A DNA stretch of 20,038 nt from Microcystis sp. T1-4 (GTDB lineage Bacteria > Cyanobacteriota > Cyanobacteriia > Cyanobacteriales > Microcystaceae), in the NCBI RefSeq assembly GCF_000297435.1, contig NZ_CAIP01000190.1, forward strand, positions 1 through 20,038, read 5' to 3'. Of the stretch, positions 5,178-20,038 are shown one piece after another. The stretch's first letter is position 1. The number at the start of each line of letters is the position of its first letter. The translations under genes and the position numbers were made by a program. The notes under the pieces were generated by a model, which did no database searches, was not told the origin of the DNA, and was given only the letters and a program-made list of their open reading frames with translations.

Positions 5178-5221
5178 TCTTTGAAGTCAGGAGATTATTT
5201 TTATTTATTCTCCCCATTTCC

Positions 5222-5255
5222 TAATTCATAATTCATAATTCATAATTCATAATTC
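5222..5255. repeat. heptamer tandem repeat (TAATTCA) x4.9, STRR-like
   Basis: TAATTCA units start at 5222, 5229, 5236 and 5243, with a partial unit at 5250. It is preceded by a second exact copy of AGGAGATTATTTTTATTTAT (5189-5208). Confidence 0.9.
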
Positions 5256-5469: not shown

Positions 5470-8439
5470 GTGGTTATCCAAATCGACTCAACTCAAAACT
5501 ACGAAACCAAAACCCAAGAGATCGCTAGACAACTTTTAGCCGAAACTCGGGAAAAAAAAGGTCTTTGGTCTGCTTTACAGGATCAAATGCGTTGGGATGA
5601 TAAATTACTCGATTGGGCAATGTCTAACCCCAATTTACGAGTACAATTATTCCGTTTTATTGACTGTTTACCCGCTTTACGCAGTAATGCCGAGATCGCT
5701 AATCATCTCCAACAATACCTCGGTGATGCTTCCGTAGAACTGCCCAGTGCGCTGAAAAGTATCCTCAACTTTAGTGATCCTAACTCCCTACCCGCTCAAA
5801 CGGCCGCCAGTCTGATCAGTAAATCCGTAGAAACCTTAGCTCGTAAGTATATCGCCGGGGAAGACCTAGAGCAAATTACTCGCACTGTCACCCGTCTGCG
5901 GAAGGAAAAAATGGCTTTTACCATAGATCTTCTCGGTGAAGCGGTAATTACTGAAGCGGAAACCCAAGTTTATCTACAAAGTTATCTGGATTTAATGACC
6001 CATTTGGCTCAAGAAGCGAGCAAATGGAATAAAGTTAGCCAAATTGATGAAGCGGACGGCGACTTATTACCACAAGTGCAGGTTTCTGTCAAGCTAACTG
6101 CCTTTTATTCTCAGTTTGATCCCATGGATCCCATTGGCAGTAAGGAGAAAGTTTGCGATCGCATTCGACTACTATTGCGACGCGCTCAGGAGTTAGGGGT
6201 AGCAGTCCATTTTGATATGGAACAGTACGTTTATAAAAACCTCACCCTGGCTATCCTGAAAGAATTACTCCTAGAAGAAGAATTTCGCAGTCGTACCGAT
6301 ATTGGCATCACCCTACAGGCATATTTAAGAGATTCTGCCCAAGATTTACAAGATTTAATTAATTGGGCCAAAAAGCGCGGTTATCCCCTTACTGTCCGGC
6401 TAGTCAAAGGCGCTTACTGGGATCAGGAAACAATTAAATCTCGCCAAAATCACTGGCCACAGCCGGTATATAACGAAAAATCCGCCACCGATGCCAATTA
6501 TGAGCGGATGACGCGGTTATTATTGGAAAATCATCAATATTTATACGCCGCCATCGGTAGTCATAACGTGCGATCGCAAGCATTGGCCTGTGCGATCGCA
6601 GAAAGTTTAGAAATTCCCCGTCGTCGCTTTGAAATGCAGGTATTGTACGGCATGGGCGACCAATTAGCCAAAGCGTTAGTGAACCGGGGTCATCGGGTGC
6701 GGGTTTATTCCCCCTACGGACAACTCTTACCCGGTATGGCCTACCTAATCCGCCGTTTATTAGAAAATACCGCTAATAGTTCCTTCCTAAGGCAAAATTT
6801 GGAGGATCGTCCCGTGGAAGATTTAATCGCAGCCCCCCGGGTTTTAGGCAAGGATAACCCGATTATCCCCGGTTTTCCTAATGCCCCCGATACAGATTAT
6901 GCTAACGAGCAATTACGAAATAAAGCGAGTCAAGCTCTTACTTTTGTCAAAAATTCCCTCGGTAAAACCTATTTACCCCTAATTAACGGCGAATACGTCG
7001 CCACCAATGTTCAAATTAATTCCGTTAATCCCTGTAACCCACAGGAAATAGTGGGTAAAGTGGGCTTAATTGATGTGGAACAGGCAGAAAAAGCGATCAT
7101 AGCGGCGAAACAGGCTTTTCCCGCGTGGAAACGCACTCCAGTGGCTAAAAGAGCCGAAATACTGCGAAAAGCGGCAGATTTGATGGAAGCGCGACGACAC
7201 GAGTTATCGGCCTGGATTTGTTTGGAAGTGGGCAAAGTTATCCAACAGGCGGATCCGGAAGTGTCAGAAGCGATCGATTTTTGCCGTTATTACGCCTCCG
7301 AGATGGAAAGACTGGATTTAGGGCATAATTTCGACGTAGCAGGCGAGAATAATCGTTATTTCTACCAACCACGGGGTATTGCTTTAGTGATTTCTCCCTG
7401 GAATTTCCCCCTAGCCATTGCGGTGGGGATGACAGTAGCAGCTTTAGTAGCCGGTAACTGTACGCTATTGAAACCTGCCGAGACTTCCTCGGTGATTACG
7501 GCGAAATTTGCCGAGATTCTCCTAGAAGCGGGTATTCCTGCCGGAGTCTTCCAATATATCCCGGGTAAAGGTTCGCAAGTGGGGGCGCATTTAGTTAGCC
7601 ATCCCGATGTTCACCTAATCGCCTTCACCGGTTCACGAGAAGTGGGCTGTCGCATCTATACAGATGCCTCCATCGTGCAAAAGGGTCAAAAACACCTAAA
7701 ACGAGTTATCGCCGAAATGGGCGGCAAAAATGCCCTAATTGTCGATGAGAGTGCCGATTTAGATCAGGCCGTTGTCGGTGCGGTTAAGTCCGCTTTTGGC
7801 TACACCGGCCAGAAATGTTCGGCCTGTTCGCGGATAATTGTTCTGGAAAGCGTCTATGATAGCTTTGTGGATCGCTTTGTCGAGGCTACCAAGTCCCTCA
7901 ATATCGGGCCGACGGATTTACCGAGTACGGAAGTAGGACCGGTTATCGACGAGAAAGCTCAAGCAAGAATTCGGGAATATATCGAAACTGGTAAAAAAGA
8001 GGCAGAATTGGCCCTAGAAATGCCGATTCCAGAAGTGGGTTACTTCGTCAGTCCCACCGTCTTTAAAAATGTTCCCCCTGATGCGGTAATAGCGATGGAG
8101 GAAATTTTTGGTCCGGTGGTGGCGATTATCAAAGTGAGCAATTTTGAGCAAGCTTTAGCTGTAGCTAACGGAACCGACTATGCTTTAACCGGTGGCTTAT
8201 ATTCTCGCACTCCTGCCCATATTAACCGAGCTACGCAGGAATTTGAAGTGGGAAACCTCTATATTAACCGGGGAATCACCGGTGCGATTGTCTCCCGTCA
8301 ACCCTTCGGGGGTTTCAAGATGTCGGGGGTAGGTTCCAAAGCAGGGGGTCCCGATTATCTCTTGCAATTCCTCGAACCTCGTCACATCAGCGAGAATATT
8401 CAACGTCAGGGATTTGCACCGATTGAAGGGGCCGATTAA
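5470..8439 (+). CDS. putA: bifunctional proline dehydrogenase / L-glutamate gamma-semialdehyde (P5C) dehydrogenase
   Basis: 989 aa. The N-terminal half is PRODH-like (...VRLVKGAYWDQE..., ...AYLIRRLLENTANSSF...). The C-terminal half is ALDH, with the catalytic Glu motif EMGGKN and the Cys motif GQKCSACSR. The length matches cyanobacterial PutA, which lacks a DNA-binding domain. It has a GTG start with no obvious SD, so the start is less certain than the frame. Confidence 0.9.
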   Translation: MVIQIDSTQNYETKTQEIARQLLAETREKKGLWSALQDQMRWDDKLLDWAMSNPNLRVQLFRFIDCLPALRSNAEIANHLQQYLGDASVELPSALKSILNFSDPNSLPAQTAASLISKSVETLARKYIAGEDLEQITRTVTRLRKEKMAFTIDLLGEAVITEAETQVYLQSYLDLMTHLAQEASKWNKVSQIDEADGDLLPQVQVSVKLTAFYSQFDPMDPIGSKEKVCDRIRLLLRRAQELGVAVHFDMEQYVYKNLTLAILKELLLEEEFRSRTDIGITLQAYLRDSAQDLQDLINWAKKRGYPLTVRLVKGAYWDQETIKSRQNHWPQPVYNEKSATDANYERMTRLLLENHQYLYAAIGSHNVRSQALACAIAESLEIPRRRFEMQVLYGMGDQLAKALVNRGHRVRVYSPYGQLLPGMAYLIRRLLENTANSSFLRQNLEDRPVEDLIAAPRVLGKDNPIIPGFPNAPDTDYANEQLRNKASQALTFVKNSLGKTYLPLINGEYVATNVQINSVNPCNPQEIVGKVGLIDVEQAEKAIIAAKQAFPAWKRTPVAKRAEILRKAADLMEARRHELSAWICLEVGKVIQQADPEVSEAIDFCRYYASEMERLDLGHNFDVAGENNRYFYQPRGIALVISPWNFPLAIAVGMTVAALVAGNCTLLKPAETSSVITAKFAEILLEAGIPAGVFQYIPGKGSQVGAHLVSHPDVHLIAFTGSREVGCRIYTDASIVQKGQKHLKRVIAEMGGKNALIVDESADLDQAVVGAVKSAFGYTGQKCSACSRIIVLESVYDSFVDRFVEATKSLNIGPTDLPSTEVGPVIDEKAQARIREYIETGKKEAELALEMPIPEVGYFVSPTVFKNVPPDAVIAMEEIFGPVVAIIKVSNFEQALAVANGTDYALTGGLYSRTPAHINRATQEFEVGNLYINRGITGAIVSRQPFGGFKMSGVGSKAGGPDYLLQFLEPRHISENIQRQGFAPIEGAD

Positions 8440-17089: not shown

Positions 17090-17506
17090 ATGGACCCTCT
17101 TACAGGAGCAGCGATCGCAGTTGGTTCGATTATTGCCACTAAAGCGTTAGAGAAAACTGGTGAAAAAGTGGGAGAGAAAGTTTGGCAACAAACAGAAAAA
17201 TTTCTCACTTCCCTGAAACAAGTTTCTCCAGATACTGTCACCGCAATTGAAAAAGCACCCGAACAGCCTTTAGATTATGGACAGGCAATTCTAGAGGTGG
17301 AATCTGTTGCTAAAACCAGTCCCGAATTAAGCCAAATTATAACCGAGTTGGTTAAAGCGATAGAAGCGGAACCTTCCCTTAAAGAATTGGTTAATAATAC
17401 CCTTAAATCTCAATCTCAACAAGCCAGCTTTATCAATAATCAAAAATTACCTGATTCCATAAAGAATCTTTTTCAAGGTAATACATTCATTGGCAATACT
17501 TTCTGA
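17090..17506 (+). CDS. small helical N-terminal domain ORF (138 aa), in frame with the downstream NB-ARC-TPR gene and ended by TGA
   Basis: I chose the ATG at 17090 (MDPLTGAAIAVGSIIATKALEKTGEKVGEKVWQQ...). It lies after the lysC hairpin and is the first ATG. The frame is the same as 17660..20038. The protein ends ...NLFQGNTFIGNTF, then TGA. Confidence 0.6.
   Translation: MDPLTGAAIAVGSIIATKALEKTGEKVGEKVWQQTEKFLTSLKQVSPDTVTAIEKAPEQPLDYGQAILEVESVAKTSPELSQIITELVKAIEAEPSLKELVNNTLKSQSQQASFINNQKLPDSIKNLFQGNTFIGNTF
17504..17506 (+). other. in-frame TGA separating the N-terminal domain from the NB-ARC domain
   Basis: Both 17024/17090 and 17660 are in the same reading frame. The 51 codons at 17507-17659 are open and encode the conserved pre-P-loop segment ...NIPRFVGRDQELIDLKKQL.... 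Confidence 0.9.
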
Positions 17507-17659
17507 CTGCAGCCGCCTGTTAAGGAACAGGTTAAACAACATCCTCACAATTTATCTAATAGTAATATCCCTAGATTTGTTGGTAGGGATCAGGAATTAA
17601 TTGACTTAAAAAAGCAATTACAACAATCCCAAAAGCTTGCTATATCTACCTTAACGGGA

Positions 17660-20038
17660 ATGGGAGGCATAGGTAAAACCGAACTAGCCAGACAGTTTGG
17701 CTGGCAACAATGGCGGGAAAAAGCCTATCCCGGGGGTATATGTTGGTTAAATGTGGCAGAAAGTGACGGCGGTTTTATCGGTACTTCTATTTTAGATTTT
17801 GCGCGGGTACATCTCAAATTAACTTTACCGGATGAGGGAGAATTAGACGTAAAAATTCGTTATTGTTGGCAAAACTGGTTAGCGGGAAATGTCCTAATTA
17901 TCTTTGATGATGTGCGGGATTATCAGCAAATTAGGGATTATTTACCACCGCAAGAAGACAAACGCTTTCAGGTTTTAATTACCACTCGCAAGGAATATTT
18001 ATCAGCGACAATTGCGACTTTTCGGGTAGAAGTATTAAAAGAAAAAGATGCACTTGATTTATTGCGTTCCTACCTTGTAGATAACAGAATTGACACACAA
18101 ATCGAGGCAGCTAAATTATTATGTCAGGATTTGGGTTATTTACCCTTGGCGTTAGAATTGGTGGCAAGGTTGCTGGTACGACGACAGGATTGGGAAATCA
18201 GCAAAATACGGCAGAAATTAGCCGAAAAAGGCTTAGATGAGCCAATCTTAGCCAAAAATCCCAAGTTTCATGGGGAAATGACTGCGGAAAGAGGGTTAAA
18301 AGCTGCCTTTAATCTCAGTTGGGAGGAGTTGCACAGCGAACCAGAAGCGCAAATTTTGGCACTTTACCTCAGTTTATTCGCTCTTGCGCCCTTTCCCAAG
18401 GGGATGATTCTGGATTTATTTCCCGATGAGGATGGGGATACAGTGGAGGAATGGTTAAGCGATAGTTTAGTTCACCTGAGTTTAGTTCAGGATAATCGTG
18501 ATGGTTGGTATGAAATTCATCCCCTGTTGCGTCGCTATTTTCGGGATAAGTTAGAAGCATCACCCCACGCAGAACCAGCAAAACGCCGTTATTGTGGGAT
18601 TATGGCCAAAAAATCGGCAGAAATGCCACAGAATCCCACTGTAGAAATCGTTGAAGAATTTAAACCTTTCCTTCTCCATCTACAAGCATCTGTCGGGGAA
18701 TATCCCCAATATATCGCTGATGAGGATTTATTATGGTCCTATACGGGTTTAGCTTGGTATTATAACGGACAAGGATTGTATGCTATTGCTGAACCTTACT
18801 ATCAAGATTGTTTAACCGCAACTCGAACCCACTTAGGAGACAATCATCCCCATGTGGCAACTTCCCTCAACAATTTAGCACTATTGTACGAATCCCAAGG
18901 CAGGTACACAGAAGCGGAACCTCTCCTTCTAGAAGCTTTAGATTTGAGAAAACGACTCTTAGGAGACAATCATCCCGATGTGGCAACTTCCCTCAACAGT
19001 TTAGCAGCATTGTACAAATCCCAAGGCAGGTACACAGAAGCGGAACCTCTCTATCTAGAAGCATTAGATTTGTATAAACGACTCTTAGGAGACAATCATC
19101 CCCATGTGGCACTTTCCCTCAACAATTTAGCACTATTGTACTATTCTCAAGGCAGGTACACAGAAGCAGAACCTCTCTTTCTAGAAGCATTAGATTTGTA
19201 TAAACGACTCTTAGGAGACAATCATCCCCATGTGGCACTTTCCCTCAACAATTTAGCAGGATTGTACGATTCCCAAGGCAGGTACACAGAAGCAGAACCT
19301 CTCCTTCTAGAAGCATTAGATTTGTATAAACGACTCTTAGGAGACAATCATCCCCATGTGGCAACTTCCCTCAACAATTTAGCAGCATTGTACGATTCTC
19401 AAGGCAGGTACACAGAAGCAGAACCTCTCTTTCTAGAAGCATTAGATTTGTATAAACGACTCTTAGGAGACAATCATCCCCATGTGGCACTTTCCCTCAA
19501 CAATTTAGCAGGATTGTACGATTCCCAAGGCAGGTACACAGAAGCAGAACCTCTCTATCTAGAAGCATTAGATTTGAGAAAACGACTCTTAGGAGACAAT
19601 CATCCCGATGTGGCAACTTCCCTCAACAATTTAGCAAACTTGTACGAATCCCAAGGCAGGTACACAGAAGCGGAACCTCTCCATCTAGAAGCATTAGATT
19701 TGAGAAAACAACTCTTAGGAGACAATCATCCCGATGTGGCACAATCCCTCAACAATTTAGCAGGATTGTACGATTCCCAAGGCAGGTACACAGAAGCGGA
19801 ACCTCTCTATCTAGAAGCATTAGATTTGACAAAACGACTCTTAGGAGACAATCATCCCGATGTGGCACAATCCCTCAACAATTTAGCACTATTGTACAAA
19901 TCCCAAGGCAGGTACACAGAAGCGGAACCTCTTTATTCTGAAGCATTACAAATTTGTGAACAATCATTAGGAATAGCGCATCCAACAACAATGACGGTTC
20001 GAGGAAATTATGCTATCTGCCTTCGTCGTGGGAGATAG
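17660..20038 (+). CDS. STAND NTPase, NB-ARC domain plus TPR repeat sensor (NLR/Avs-like); coding-like sequence extends 5' to 17507
   Basis: Walker A is GMGGIGKTELA, and the ORF-track Met lies inside the P-loop. Walker B is VLIIFDDVRD, the sensor-1/RNBS-B-like motif is QVLITTRKE, and the GLPLA-type motif is LGYLPLALELVARLL. These are followed by a helical linker and TPR_10/12-type 42-aa repeats. The TAG stop lies at the last 3 bases of the window. Confidence 0.85.
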   Translation: MGGIGKTELARQFGWQQWREKAYPGGICWLNVAESDGGFIGTSILDFARVHLKLTLPDEGELDVKIRYCWQNWLAGNVLIIFDDVRDYQQIRDYLPPQEDKRFQVLITTRKEYLSATIATFRVEVLKEKDALDLLRSYLVDNRIDTQIEAAKLLCQDLGYLPLALELVARLLVRRQDWEISKIRQKLAEKGLDEPILAKNPKFHGEMTAERGLKAAFNLSWEELHSEPEAQILALYLSLFALAPFPKGMILDLFPDEDGDTVEEWLSDSLVHLSLVQDNRDGWYEIHPLLRRYFRDKLEASPHAEPAKRRYCGIMAKKSAEMPQNPTVEIVEEFKPFLLHLQASVGEYPQYIADEDLLWSYTGLAWYYNGQGLYAIAEPYYQDCLTATRTHLGDNHPHVATSLNNLALLYESQGRYTEAEPLLLEALDLRKRLLGDNHPDVATSLNSLAALYKSQGRYTEAEPLYLEALDLYKRLLGDNHPHVALSLNNLALLYYSQGRYTEAEPLFLEALDLYKRLLGDNHPHVALSLNNLAGLYDSQGRYTEAEPLLLEALDLYKRLLGDNHPHVATSLNNLAALYDSQGRYTEAEPLFLEALDLYKRLLGDNHPHVALSLNNLAGLYDSQGRYTEAEPLYLEALDLRKRLLGDNHPDVATSLNNLANLYESQGRYTEAEPLHLEALDLRKQLLGDNHPDVAQSLNNLAGLYDSQGRYTEAEPLYLEALDLTKRLLGDNHPDVAQSLNNLALLYKSQGRYTEAEPLYSEALQICEQSLGIAHPTTMTVRGNYAICLRRGR
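18833..19966 (+). repeat. nine tandem 126-bp units encoding 42-aa TPR repeats (LGDNHP.VA.SLNNLA.LY.SQGRYTEAEPL.LEALDL.KRL)
   Basis: Units start at 18833, 18959, 19085, 19211, 19337, 19463, 19589, 19715 and 19841, an exact 126-bp period. Units 1-8 differ at only a handful of nucleotides. Unit 9 diverges in its last ~35 nt. A degenerate capping half-unit follows at 19967-20035. Confidence 0.95.

What the first reader, a model, noticed from the sequence alone, without database searches (positions are those of the whole stretch)
18833..19966. TPR array with near-identical 126-bp units and replacements confined to eight codons: a signature of concerted evolution plus diversifying selection
Across units 1-8, plus the conserved part of unit 9, I see only three synonymous polymorphic sites. 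They are tcc/tct in the Ser of Y.SQ, gcg/gca in EAE, and gct/gca in EAL. Eight codon positions carry amino-acid changes, often with 2-3 nucleotide differences: position 7 H/D, 10 T/L/Q (act/ctt/caa), 14 N/S, 17 L/A/G/N (cta/gca/gga/aac), 20 E/K/Y/D, 32 L/Y/F/H, 39 R/Y/T and 41 R/Q. Units 4 and 6 are identical over their first 97 nt. This mirrors the highly internally conserved, hypervariable-position repeats of fungal NLRs. It suggests repeat shuffling that generates new ligand-binding surfaces. It is also an assembly hazard, because unit number may be mis-estimated by short reads.
Basis: seen in the sequence. Interest (0 to 1): 0.65.

Follow-up and report, generated by a model that had tools for sequence, protein, structure and literature searches.

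The report
Hypervariable repeat sensor of bacterial NLR
Nine almost identical 42-residue repeats at the end of a Microcystis immune-receptor-like (NLR) gene differ only at the few positions that line its predicted binding groove, the diversity-generating design known from fungal immune receptors; in addition, the gene seems to be reached only by reading through a conserved UGA stop codon.

Summary
Positions 18833-19966 hold nine in-frame 126-bp units. In units 1-8, three sites are synonymous and eight codons carry all replacements.

The array is the C-terminal sensor of a Microcystis NB-ARC/TPR (NLR-type) protein. Its units are kinesin-light-chain-type 42-residue TPRs.

- Orthologous arrays in other strains have 2-9 units and almost entirely different hypervariable residues.
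- Six codons (7, 10, 17, 20, 32, 39) have non-synonymous diversity 4-9 times the synonymous level. The other codons have essentially none.
- Positions 10, 17, 20, 21 and 39 correspond to KLC1 residues that touch bound peptide in the concave groove.
- Silent variants are homogenised within arrays. A paralogue that is 21% diverged in NB-ARC differs by only 1.7% in the repeat background.

This is the regime described for fungal NLRs, and it has been noted but not analysed for bacteria. It is a new member of a known kind.

One unexpected result lies outside the given coordinates. The NLR ORF has no start codon. It follows, in frame, a Bell-like effector gene that ends in UGA-C. Across cyanobacteria, 44 of 52 UGA-ended effector genes continue in frame into an NLR, against 0 of 24 ended by UAA or UAG. 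A covarying hairpin lies 8 nt downstream of the UGA. This is a candidate programmed readthrough.

The parts
18833..19966 (+). Nine tandem 126-bp (42-codon) KLC-type TPR units. Units 1-8 are near identical. Unit 9 diverges in its last ~10 codons. Hypervariable codons are 7, 10, 17, 20, 32 and 39 (weaker: 26, 41).
   Evidence: TRF; unit and codon tables; Pfam TPR_10/TPR_12; AlphaFold model with pLDDT 91; Foldseek hit to KLC1 TPR, TM 0.79-0.82.
18707..18832 (+). Degenerate N-terminal capping TPR-like helix pair that precedes unit 1.
   Evidence: Helices H2-22 and H26-44 of the model, whose residue 1 corresponds to nt 18704.
19967..20038 (+). C-terminal capping helix (LGIAHPTTMTVRGNYAICLRRGR) and the TAG stop. 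The window ends at the stop codon.
   Evidence: Translation. The same cap allele occurs in P0009, P0041 and P0043; other strains carry two other cap alleles.
17594..18238 (+). NB-ARC nucleotide-binding domain. The P-loop GMGGIGKT lies at 17657-17680.
   Evidence: Pfam PF00931, E = 2.6e-19, residues 30-244 of the 843-aa ORF.
17507..17593 (+). Linker between the UGA and NB-ARC (LQPPVKEQVKQHPHNLSNSNIPRFVGRDQ). It contains no ATG, GTG or TTG. The first such codon after the stop is the Met inside the P-loop (17660).
   Evidence: ORF list; translation. The linker is homologous to a translated linker in ATG-started alleles.
17504..17506 (+). In-frame TGA, followed by C and the codon CTG. It separates the effector ORF from the NLR ORF and is a candidate readthrough codon.
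   Evidence: TGA is conserved in 52 non-redundant effector loci; 44 of these continue in frame, against 0 of 24 loci ended by TAA or TAG.
17515..17532 (+). Hairpin that starts 8 nt after the UGA. In Microcystis the arms are GCCUGUU and AACAGGU with a 4-nt loop. The core shared across cyanobacteria is 5 bp.
   Evidence: strand folding. In 35 sequences, 97.1% of cells are paired and 28 cells have changes on both sides, against 9.5 ± 4.8 in shuffles (0 of 500 shuffles reach the observed value). Slid controls pair at 35% or less.
17090..17503 (+). 138-aa Bell-like effector. It has an N-terminal MDPLT hydrophobic helix, a six-helix bundle, and a disordered C-terminal tail (KLPDSIKNLFQGNTFIGNTF, nt 17444-17503) of the amyloid-signalling-motif type.
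   Evidence: 399 small cyanobacterial homologues with no Pfam family. The model has pLDDT 74 with residues 110-138 below 50. The MEPIS-type N-terminus is described in bioRxiv 10.1101/2024.11.07.622273.

Best explanation
The array encodes the ligand-sensing solenoid of a Microcystis NLR-type (NB-ARC/TPR STAND) receptor. It consists of nine 42-residue kinesin-light-chain-type TPR units.

Frequent recombination and gene conversion keep the DNA of the units almost identical. This exchange occurs among units, among alleles and among paralogous loci (concerted evolution). The same exchange changes unit number and reshuffles units.

Against this homogenised background, six codons per unit are kept extremely diverse. 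They lie on the groove-facing stripe of helix A (7, 10, 17, 20) and on a stripe of helix B (32, 39). Between them sit the invariant Asn13/Asn14 'ladder' residues, which in KLC1 hold the backbone of a bound peptide.

Each strain therefore carries its own combinatorial binding surface. The most likely driver is diversifying selection from non-self ligands such as phage proteins.

Inferred, not shown: ligand binding releases NB-ARC oligomerisation. This activates the upstream Bell-like membrane-targeting effector through its amyloid-type tail and causes abortive cell death.

Shown here: the architecture, the repeat statistics, the strain polymorphism, the homology of the variable sites to peptide-contact sites, and the homogenisation. 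Inferred: the ligand, the signalling and the immune role.
For: - Architecture: NB-ARC plus TPR_10/TPR_12. The closest solved sequences and folds are KLC1/2 TPRs and the Podospora 42-residue repeat 4Y6C/4Y6W.
- Clustering: 19 variable nucleotides fall in 11 codons, P = 8.5e-5.
- Selection, window only: pN/pS is 8.8 at 8 codons; pN is 0 and pS 0.05 at the other 34.
- Selection, 40 units from 8 arrays: pN is 4.3-8.8 times the global pS at codons 7, 10, 17, 20, 32 and 39.
- Entropy exceeds 2 bits at positions 7, 10, 17, 20 and 39 in 230 distinct units.
- Arrays of 52 orthologues have 2-9 units and 245 distinct signatures, with cases of single-unit gain or loss.
- Closed genomes carry arrays of 7 and 5 units.
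- Helix A is unit positions 6-21 and helix B is 25-43. KLC1 peptide contacts from PMC6214655 map by the 42-residue period and by residue identity (alignment) to positions 10, 13, 14, 17, 18, 20, 21, 25 and 39.
- Concerted evolution: background differences are 1.95 within arrays and 2.85 between (P = 1e-4). The change nt72 G>A is fixed in all 8 units of L005 only.
- A paralogue is 21% divergent in NB-ARC but 1.7% in the repeat background.
- One unit is shared between a paralogous locus and an orthologous locus with 1 nt difference.
- Precedent: the fungal regime is documented in PMC4986451. High internal repeat conservation in bacterial NLRs is noted in bioRxiv 10.1101/2020.01.06.895854.
Against: - pN/pS among recombining paralogous units is not a formal site test. 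No recombination-aware codon model was run.
- pS is itself lowered by homogenisation and is estimated from few sites.
- Positions 7 and 32 have no direct counterpart among the listed KLC1 contacts. Position 32 varies only among Y, L, F, H and C and may be semi-buried.
- No ligand, phage or phenotype is known.
- The unit number and order in this window cannot be verified, and the window ends 72 nt after the array.
- The NLR ORF lacks a canonical start codon, so its expression depends on an unproven mechanism.
Confidence: 0.8

Rival explanations
1. Neutral hypervariability. The variable codons are simply unconstrained surface positions. The rest of the unit is under strong purifying selection, and no positive selection is involved.
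For: The variable sites are solvent-exposed helix positions. The linker and cap regions of the same protein also vary freely.
Against: Relaxed constraint cannot push non-synonymous diversity above synonymous diversity. At six codons pN is 4-9 times the global pS. Diversity at these codons is as high within one array as between strains (8.7 vs 8.9 of 27 nt), although linked silent sites are homogenised. Other exposed positions, such as 11, 22, 24, 27, 29 and 37, are invariant.
Confidence: 0.08
2. Targeted mutagenesis. A diversity-generating retroelement (DGR) or similar system writes variation into specific codons, as in DGR-diversified NLR-like sensors of multicellular bacteria.
For: At the variable codons the first and second positions vary while the third is mostly fixed, and each amino acid uses one codon. 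This superficially resembles DGR targets. DGR diversification of bacterial conflict sensors is known (PMC10907252, listed).
Against: No reverse transcriptase or template repeat lies in the 17 kb upstream in the window or within ±6 kb of the array in a closed genome. Of 41 consensus adenines, 27 are invariant in all 40 units. Of 22 strongly variable sites, 13 have G, C or T as the consensus base. The target is a TPR array, not a C-type-lectin fold.
Confidence: 0.03
3. Assembly artefact. The array in this window is collapsed, expanded or chimeric because short reads cannot resolve 126-bp units that are 87-96% identical. Its unit number and order are therefore unreliable.
For: About 23 of 52 database orthologues end inside a unit. 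The contig behind L004 stops inside its array. The window stops 72 nt after the array. Fungal work needed long reads for such alleles (PMC12222747, listed).
Against: The ORF is intact through nine units and a proper cap. Every unit is distinct by at least 5 nt. Arrays of the same kind are present in closed chromosomes CP191408 and CP169647. An artefact would not remove the phenomenon, only this array's exact composition.
Confidence: 0.12
4. Non-immune TPR regulator. The protein is a scaffold or regulator, such as an AfsR-like regulator or the FxSxx-COOH RiPP-system TPR protein, as some database names say.
For: The NCBIfam model NF040586 (FxSxx_TPR) scores 360 bits against a cutoff of 300. Database names include 'FxSxx-COOH system TPR protein' and 'regulatory protein AfsR'.
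Against: The NF040586 match lies in the repeated TPR region and is inflated by nine copies. AfsR and HaaT score far below their cutoffs. No radical-SAM, Fxs or DNA-binding partner is in the window or around L002. Strain-specific hypervariability and a Bell-like effector upstream fit a conflict system.
Confidence: 0.05

Closest known systems
Fungal NLRs with highly internally conserved 42-residue TPR repeats (e.g. Podospora anserina Pa_2_10340; structures 4Y6C/4Y6W)
   Same: NB-ARC followed by 42-residue TPRs. Units are more than 85-90% identical. Repeat number varies among strains. A few positively selected positions lie on the concave face. Repeats are exchanged between loci (PMC4986451).
   Different: The host is a bacterium. 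The effector is a separate Bell-like ORF rather than a fused HET, HeLo or sesB domain. Six strongly variable sites are seen here, against three formally selected sites in the fungal study. The gene has no start codon of its own.
Bell/BASS-NLR amyloid-signalling gene pairs of multicellular bacteria (Dyrka et al. 2020) and Bab/Agp of E. coli
   Same: A small helical effector with a MEPxT-type N-terminal helix and a short Q/N/G-rich C-terminal motif sits immediately upstream of, and collinear with, an NB-ARC/TPR gene. Microcystis was already listed as a host. An allelic form of this very locus is a textbook pair, with ...IVNFSQRDININEQNITM on the effector and MDQKTVNYAQRDINIKQQNIY on the NLR.
   Different: In the window the NLR has no copy of the motif and no start codon. 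The two ORFs are one reading frame interrupted by UGA. Pair-based searches would therefore miss it.
Kinesin light chain TPR domain (KLC1/KLC2)
   Same: 42-residue TPR period, 38-46% identity, TM up to 0.82, a conserved Asn pair in helix A, and peptide binding in the concave groove.
   Different: KLC repeats are individually diverged and conserved across species. Here the units are near identical and the contact positions are hypervariable.
DGR-diversified putative antigen sensors of multicellular bacteria (PMC10907252)
   Same: NLR-like conflict proteins of cyanobacteria with a hypervariable ligand-binding end.
   Different: The mechanism differs. There is no RT or template repeat and no adenine specificity. 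Variation arises by recombination among repeats plus selection.
Programmed stop-codon readthrough signals (Qbeta coat/A1 UGA; MuLV gag-pol stop plus a structure 8 nt downstream; UGA-C leakiness in E. coli)
   Same: A conserved UGA with +4 C, a downstream ORF in frame without its own start, and a covarying hairpin after an 8-nt spacer (+4C effect from PMC5289835). The Qbeta and MuLV parallels are from my own knowledge.
   Different: This is a cellular bacterial gene family. The hairpin is only 5-7 bp, and a pseudoknot is only weakly supported. No product has been demonstrated.

Membership tests
NLR with highly internally conserved repeats (fungal-type regime, Dyrka 2014) | NB-ARC or NACHT domain N-terminal to TPR, WD or ANK repeats | tested here: met
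   PF00931 at E = 2.6e-19, followed by TPR_10/TPR_12.
NLR with highly internally conserved repeats (fungal-type regime, Dyrka 2014) | Repeat units about 85% or more identical over more than 100 residues | tested here: met
   93% nucleotide matches over 8.9 copies. Units 1-8 differ pairwise by 5-16 of 126 nt and at no more than 8 of 42 residues.
NLR with highly internally conserved repeats (fungal-type regime, Dyrka 2014) | Repeat-number polymorphism among strains | tested here: met
   2-9 units in 52 orthologues and 7 loci, including closed genomes.
NLR with highly internally conserved repeats (fungal-type regime, Dyrka 2014) | Excess non-synonymous change at a few codons | tested here: met
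   pN is 4.3-8.8 times the global pS at six codons and about 0 elsewhere. These are count-based measures, not a codon model.
NLR with highly internally conserved repeats (fungal-type regime, Dyrka 2014) | Variable sites on the ligand-binding (concave) face | tested here: met
   Positions 10, 17, 20, 21 and 39 correspond to KLC1 peptide-contact residues. Positions 7 and 32 are placed only by helical periodicity.
NLR with highly internally conserved repeats (fungal-type regime, Dyrka 2014) | Homogenisation of units within and between loci | tested here: met
Bell/BASS-NLR amyloid signalling pair | Effector with a Bell-type helical domain and a hydrophobic N-terminal helix | tested here: inconclusive
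   A MDPLT/MEPLT N-terminus and a six-helix bundle are present. No Bell profile is in the libraries, and no PDB fold matches at E below 0.8.
Bell/BASS-NLR amyloid signalling pair | The same short motif at the effector C-terminus and the NLR N-terminus | tested here: not met
   In the window the NLR side has no motif and no start codon. The feature is met in allelic loci L010 and L011 and in other loci ended by TAA or TAG.
Bell/BASS-NLR amyloid signalling pair | The motif forms amyloid and cross-seeds | not testable with these tools
   Needs fibril or prion assays.
42-residue KLC-type TPR (TPR_10/TPR_12) | 42-residue helix-turn-helix period with the LxNLAxxY...G.Y.EA signature and a KLC-like superhelix | tested here: met
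Diversity-generating retroelement target | A nearby RT and template repeat, with variation only at template adenines | tested here: not met
FxSxx-COOH RiPP system TPR protein (NF040586) | HMM score above the curated cutoff | tested here: met
   360 bits against a cutoff of 300, but the match is carried by the repeated TPR region.
FxSxx-COOH RiPP system TPR protein (NF040586) | Linked FxsA precursor and FxsB/C radical-SAM genes | tested here: not met
   None in the 17 kb upstream in the window or within ±6 kb in L002. The region downstream of the window is not available.
Programmed stop-codon readthrough | A conserved leaky stop (UGA with +4 C) at a fixed position across lineages | tested here: met
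   All 52 loci of this class end in TGA. Among the 44 that continue in frame, +4 is C in 39.
Programmed stop-codon readthrough | A long downstream ORF in the same frame that lacks its own start and needs the upstream frame | tested here: met
   44 of 52 TGA loci against 0 of 24 TAA or TAG loci, Fisher P = 2.8e-13. The window and most loci have no ATG, GTG or TTG before the FVGR motif.
Programmed stop-codon readthrough | A stimulatory RNA structure just 3' of the stop, supported by covariation | tested here: met
   A 5-bp stem after an 8-nt spacer, with two pairs showing compensatory changes. The MFE of 76-nt windows is not better than shuffles.
Programmed stop-codon readthrough | A detected readthrough polypeptide | not testable with these tools
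   Needs a reporter assay, western blot or mass spectrometry.
Selenocysteine insertion (bacterial SECIS) | SelB-binding hairpin and selA/B/C/D genes in the genome | not tested
The hairpin is much shorter than known bacterial SECIS elements (my own knowledge). No tRNA gene is in the window.

The most novel reading that the evidence does not exclude
The NLR is made only by programmed readthrough of the UGA that ends the Bell-like effector gene. In a whole class of cyanobacterial effector/NLR systems, covering several tail motifs and several downstream NTPase types, one reading frame would then yield two products. Abundant free effector comes from termination. A rare effector-motif-NLR fusion comes from readthrough of UGA-CUR, stimulated by a hairpin 8 nt downstream. 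The fusion would supply the NLR-side copy of the amyloid motif, which two-gene systems encode separately. Translational recoding would thus set the receptor-to-effector ratio.
Probability: 0.5. Interest if true: 0.8.

Novelty: new member of a known kind. Interest (0 to 1): 0.5.

Why it matters
The repeat array gives a quantified bacterial example of the 'near-identical repeats with hypervariable contact positions' regime. Until now that regime was documented for fungal NLRs and only remarked upon for bacteria. The example comes with population data from a bloom-forming cyanobacterium whose phage interactions are ecologically important.

It supports the view that this way of generating receptor diversity is shared by NLR-type receptors of fungi and bacteria. 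It also points to six residues per unit as the specificity code to test.

In practice it flags these genes as systematically mis-assembled and mis-annotated. Arrays are truncated, starts are placed inside the P-loop or at ATT/ATC codons, and the 'FxSxx-COOH' name looks wrong.

If the in-frame UGA proves to be a recoding site, it would be a rare case of conserved programmed readthrough in cellular bacterial genes. It would also be a new way of wiring an immune receptor to its executioner.

Tried and rejected
- DGR-type mutagenesis: rejected (no RT or template repeat; adenines mostly invariant).
- FxSxx-COOH, AfsR and HaaT membership: rejected or unsupported (neighbours).
- PADLOC: only a generic TPR hit and a weak PtuB hit for the effector. 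Not informative.
- Fold search of the effector model: no significant PDB match. Bell membership therefore rests on the N-terminal motif and the context.
- Thermodynamic test of the post-UGA hairpin: the MFE of 76-nt windows is no better than shuffles (z from -0.05 to -1.0). Support comes from covariation only.
- Pseudoknot between hairpin loop positions 20-23 and downstream positions 39-42: 83.6% paired, but the covariation comes from one clade and the downstream C-run encodes prolines. It is only weakly supported.
- pN/pS of the linker between the UGA and FVGR: 0.7-1.05, so uninformative about translation.
- Rfam: nothing at the junction.
- Literature searches for readthrough in these systems: nothing found in the held library.
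- Reinitiation at the codon after the UGA: considered. It fits CTG, ATG, GTG and ATC (33 of 44 loci) but not CTA, CTT or CCA (11 of 44). It would also give an NLR without any amyloid motif.
Full report
**1. The observation**

Tandem Repeats Finder finds a single long array at 18832-19948, with period 126, 8.9 copies, 93% matches and no indels. Cut at 18833, it gives nine in-frame 42-codon units with the consensus LGDNHPxVAxSLNNLAxLYxSQGRYTEAEPLxLEALDLxKxL.

In units 1-8 the only synonymous polymorphisms are at codons 21, 28 and 35. The 19 variable nucleotides occupy 11 codons, and random placement gives that few with P = 8.5e-5.

There are two small corrections. Units 4 and 6 are identical for 93 nt, not 97. 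Unit 9 adds a fourth silent site.

**2. What the gene is**

The array is the 3' end of an ORF that runs to the last base of the window (TAG at 20036-20038). Pfam finds NB-ARC (E = 2.6e-19) followed by TPR_10/TPR_12, which is the NLR/STAND architecture.

Homologues at 88-98% identity are all from Microcystis. The rest of the window holds housekeeping genes: putA, phosphoglucomutase, rsmB and aspartate kinase.

By sequence, the closest solved structures are kinesin light chain TPR domains (E about 1e-55) and the Podospora anserina 42-residue repeat 4Y6C/4Y6W. A single-sequence AlphaFold model of the TPR region is confident (pLDDT 91, pTM 0.85). It places helix A at unit positions 6-21 and helix B at positions 25-43. 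Foldseek returns KLC1 TPR, with 6FUZ at TM 0.79 and 5OJ8 at TM 0.82.

**3. Strain comparison**

Seven genomic loci, including two closed chromosomes, carry arrays of 3, 7, 5, 9, 5 and (in a paralogue) 8 units of the same type, plus one array cut off by a contig end. Fifty-two orthologous proteins carry 2-9 units.

Taking the residues at positions 7, 10, 17, 20, 32 and 39 as a signature, there are 245 distinct signatures in about 330 units. None of the window's nine occurs in any other protein, although the NB-ARC parts are 88-98% identical.

Some pairs show unit-scale events. P0047 equals P0017 minus one unit. P0005 and P0006 share their first three units.

About 23 of the 52 proteins end inside a unit, and one contig stops within its array. 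The 'assembly hazard' remark is therefore justified. The exact unit count in this window could not be checked.

**4. Selection**

Within the window, Nei-Gojobori counts give pN = 0.41 and pS = 0.066 at the eight variable codons (ratio 8.8). At the other 34 codons pN is 0 and pS is 0.05.

Pooling 40 internal units from eight arrays, pN relative to the global pS (0.081) is:

| Codon | pN / global pS |
|---|---|
| 7 | 5.0 |
| 10 | 7.7 |
| 17 | 8.8 |
| 20 | 7.2 |
| 32 | 4.3 |
| 39 | 7.3 |
| 26 | 2.9 |
| 41 | 2.0 |
| 14 and 21 | below 1 |

All other codons are about 0.

In 230 distinct units, entropy exceeds 2 bits at positions 7, 10, 17, 20 and 39. The core hypervariable set is therefore six codons rather than eight.

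These are count-based measures on recombining sequences, not a formal codon-model test.

**5. Where the variable sites lie**

The helix-A sites (7, 10, 14, 17, 20/21) have the 3-4 spacing of one helical face. Positions 25, 32 and 39 form an i, i+7 stripe on helix B.

Pernigo et al. (PMC6214655) list the KLC1 residues that contact JIP1 or TorsinA peptides in the concave groove. I mapped them using the 42-residue period and the HMMER alignment, and checked each residue identity:

| KLC1 residue(s) | Unit position |
|---|---|
| K340 | 10 |
| N259 / N301 / N343 | 13 |
| N302 / N344 / N386 | 14 |
| V305 / L347 | 17 |
| L348 | 18 |
| R266 | 20 |
| K309 / N351 | 21 |
| Y313 | 25 |
| R327 | 39 |

Four of the six hypervariable positions (10, 17, 20, 39), plus position 21, are homologous to peptide-contact residues. 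The invariant N13/N14 correspond to the asparagine pairs that bind the peptide backbone. Positions 7 and 32 are placed on the same stripes by periodicity only.

This is the result reported for the Podospora NB-ARC/TPR gene, which was modelled on KLC2 (PMC4986451).

**6. Concerted evolution**

- At 99 background nucleotides, units differ by 1.95 within an array and 2.85 between arrays (permutation P = 1e-4).
- A synonymous G>A at nt 72 is fixed in all eight units of L005 and absent elsewhere.
- T26P and T26K have spread through most units of single arrays.
- At the hypervariable codons, diversity is the same within arrays (8.7 of 27 nt) and between arrays (8.9 of 27 nt).
- The paralogous locus L006 differs from the window by 21% in NB-ARC plus linker, but by only 1.7% in the repeat background.
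- One L006 unit differs by a single nucleotide from a unit at the orthologous locus of another strain, while the flanking units differ by 14-23 nt.
- At hypervariable codons each amino acid uses essentially one codon. Only immediately neighbouring sites (17-20 and 7-10) are linked. This fits a limited alphabet of codon alleles recombined at sub-unit scale.

**7. Rivals**

A DGR is excluded. No reverse transcriptase lies near the array in the window or in a closed genome. Of 41 consensus adenines, 27 never vary, and most variable sites are not adenines.

Relaxed constraint alone cannot give pN greater than pS.

The NCBI name 'FxSxx-COOH system TPR protein' passes the model cutoff only through the nine TPR copies, and no Fxs partners are linked.

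**8. What is known**

Dyrka et al. 2014 described this regime for fungal NLRs: 42-residue TPRs, repeat-number polymorphism and positive selection on the concave face. Dyrka et al. [quoted passage not shown] They also list Microcystis among hosts of Bell/BASS-NLR pairs.

I found no paper that analyses such a bacterial array. The finding is therefore a new, now quantified, member of a known kind.

**9. Outside the given coordinates: an in-frame UGA**

The NLR ORF has no ATG, GTG or TTG before the Met inside its own P-loop at 17660. Upstream, in the same frame and separated only by TGA (17504-17506), lies a 138-aa ORF. Its product starts MDPLTGAAIAVGS... and ends ...IKNLFQGNTFIGNTF.

That protein belongs to a cyanobacteria-wide family of proteins of about 140 aa without a Pfam family. 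It has:
- the MEPxT-type N-terminal helix described for Bell/Hell domains;
- a six-helix bundle;
- a disordered Q/N/G-rich tail.

At this same Microcystis locus, other strains carry one of two alternatives. Some have a different effector, again followed by TGA and the same linker. Others have a classical two-gene pair, in which the effector ends with TAA and the NLR starts with ATG and its own copy of the tail motif.

**10. How general the UGA arrangement is**

Four distant genomes (Woronichinia, Nostoc, Calothrix and a metagenome-assembled genome) show the same TGA plus in-frame NLR. A metagenome scan added 80 loci.

| Effector stop codon | Non-redundant loci | Followed by a long in-frame ORF |
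|---|---|---|
| TGA | 52 | 44 |
| TAA | 19 | 0 |
| TAG | 5 | 0 |

Fisher's exact test gives P = 2.8e-13.

Among the 44 continuing loci:
- the base after TGA is C in 39;
- the next codon is CTG in 28, CTA in 9, and another codon in 7.

These loci span at least five different tail motifs and several downstream NTPase types. Effectors ended by TAA or TAG are instead followed by ATG-started NLRs that carry their own copy of the tail motif, in four motif types.

TGA is an ordinary stop elsewhere in the window. UGA with +4 C is documented as an inefficient terminator in bacteria (PMC5289835).

**11. The hairpin after the UGA**

Eight nucleotides after the UGA lies a 5-bp stem, extended to 7 bp in Microcystis. 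All four combinations occur: GCCUG/CAGG, GUCUG/CAGAC, GUCCG/CGGAC and GCCCG/CGGG.

In 35 sequences:
- 97.1% of cells pair;
- 28 cells carry changes on both sides, against 9.5 ± 4.8 in shuffles (0 of 500 shuffles reach the observed value);
- slid controls pair at 35% or less.

One covarying pair links a synonymous third position of a Ser/Pro codon to the second position of an Arg/Gln codon. Protein-level co-evolution is therefore unlikely to be the cause.

Seven sequences with a different linker were left out of that alignment. A loop-downstream pseudoknot is only weakly supported. Folding energy alone is not significant, and Rfam has nothing at the junction.

**12. Reading of the UGA**

The simplest reading is programmed UGA readthrough that produces an effector-motif-NLR fusion alongside free effector. 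This would supply the NLR-side motif that this class otherwise lacks.

The alternatives are reinitiation at the next codon, selenocysteine insertion, or a recombination junction. Reinitiation does not fit the CTA, CTT and CCA cases, and it would leave the NLR without a motif. Selenocysteine was not tested, and the hairpin is much shorter than known bacterial SECIS elements.

I put readthrough at about 0.5. No product has been shown.

**13. Verdict**

The repeat array is a bacterial example of a mechanism known from fungi, so it is of moderate interest. The conserved in-frame UGA and hairpin upstream in the same gene are the unexpected part and deserve experimental testing.

Noticed in passing
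window 17504-17532 (also L002-L005, L007, L008, L012-L015 and 30+ metagenome loci): An in-frame TGA-C lies between the Bell-like effector ORF and the start-less NB-ARC/TPR ORF. It is conserved across cyanobacteria: 44 of 52 TGA-ended effectors continue in frame, against 0 of 24 ended by TAA or TAG. A covarying hairpin lies 8 nt downstream. This is a candidate programmed readthrough.
   Followed up: partly
window 17090-17593; L003, L004, L007, L008; L010, L011: The same Microcystis locus exists in three configurations: effector type A + TGA + NLR; an unrelated effector type B (MEPITVATIVALVF...ININKT) + TGA + the same NLR; and effector A with a different tail + TAA + about 135 nt of spacer + an ATG-started NLR with a matching N-terminal motif. 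The exchange breakpoint sits at the TGA/linker junction.
   Followed up: partly
P0002, P0004, P0005, P0008 and others; L012-L015 gene calls: Gene callers start these NLRs at the Met inside the P-loop, at ATT/ATC/ATA codons, or downstream of the conserved FVGR motif. Database entries for this family are therefore N-terminally truncated, and the link to the effector is lost.
   Followed up: partly
L001, L022, L028, L032, L071 (effector gene): In several Microcystis loci the effector ORF is interrupted after about 30-100 codons by a short foreign segment, translated as ...ALRYLVWFDREA* or ...ALRFVLCNGRGL*. These look like small insertion (MITE-like) elements that inactivate the effector.
   Followed up: no
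L005 array end; C-termini: The array of L005 ends in a frame-shifting junction (…GSLNNLFILKHYKFVSNH*). The C-terminal cap after the array comes in at least three unrelated alleles...ICLRRGR as in the window...VVEMLKPKPPHP, and ...IMRQQQHPSP.
   Followed up: no
L010 3685-4575; L012 6201-7414; L014 5387-6120; L002 9096-9521: Toxin-antitoxin genes (ParE, PhdYeFM/PIN, HicA, PIN) lie immediately downstream of the NLR in several genomes. This suggests a defence-island-like setting. In L002 the cassette sits in a different neighbourhood (isoamylase, DnaJ) from the window (aspartate kinase).
   Followed up: no
window 17507-20035: The NCBIfam equivalog model NF040586 ('FxSxx-COOH system TPR protein') passes its cutoff on this protein only through the nine repeated TPR units. 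No Fxs partner genes are nearby, so the RefSeq name given to orthologues is probably an over-annotation.
   Followed up: partly
window 5218-5255: A short tandem repeat, TTCATAA × 5.4 copies, lies just upstream of the putA-like gene that starts at 5470.
   Followed up: no
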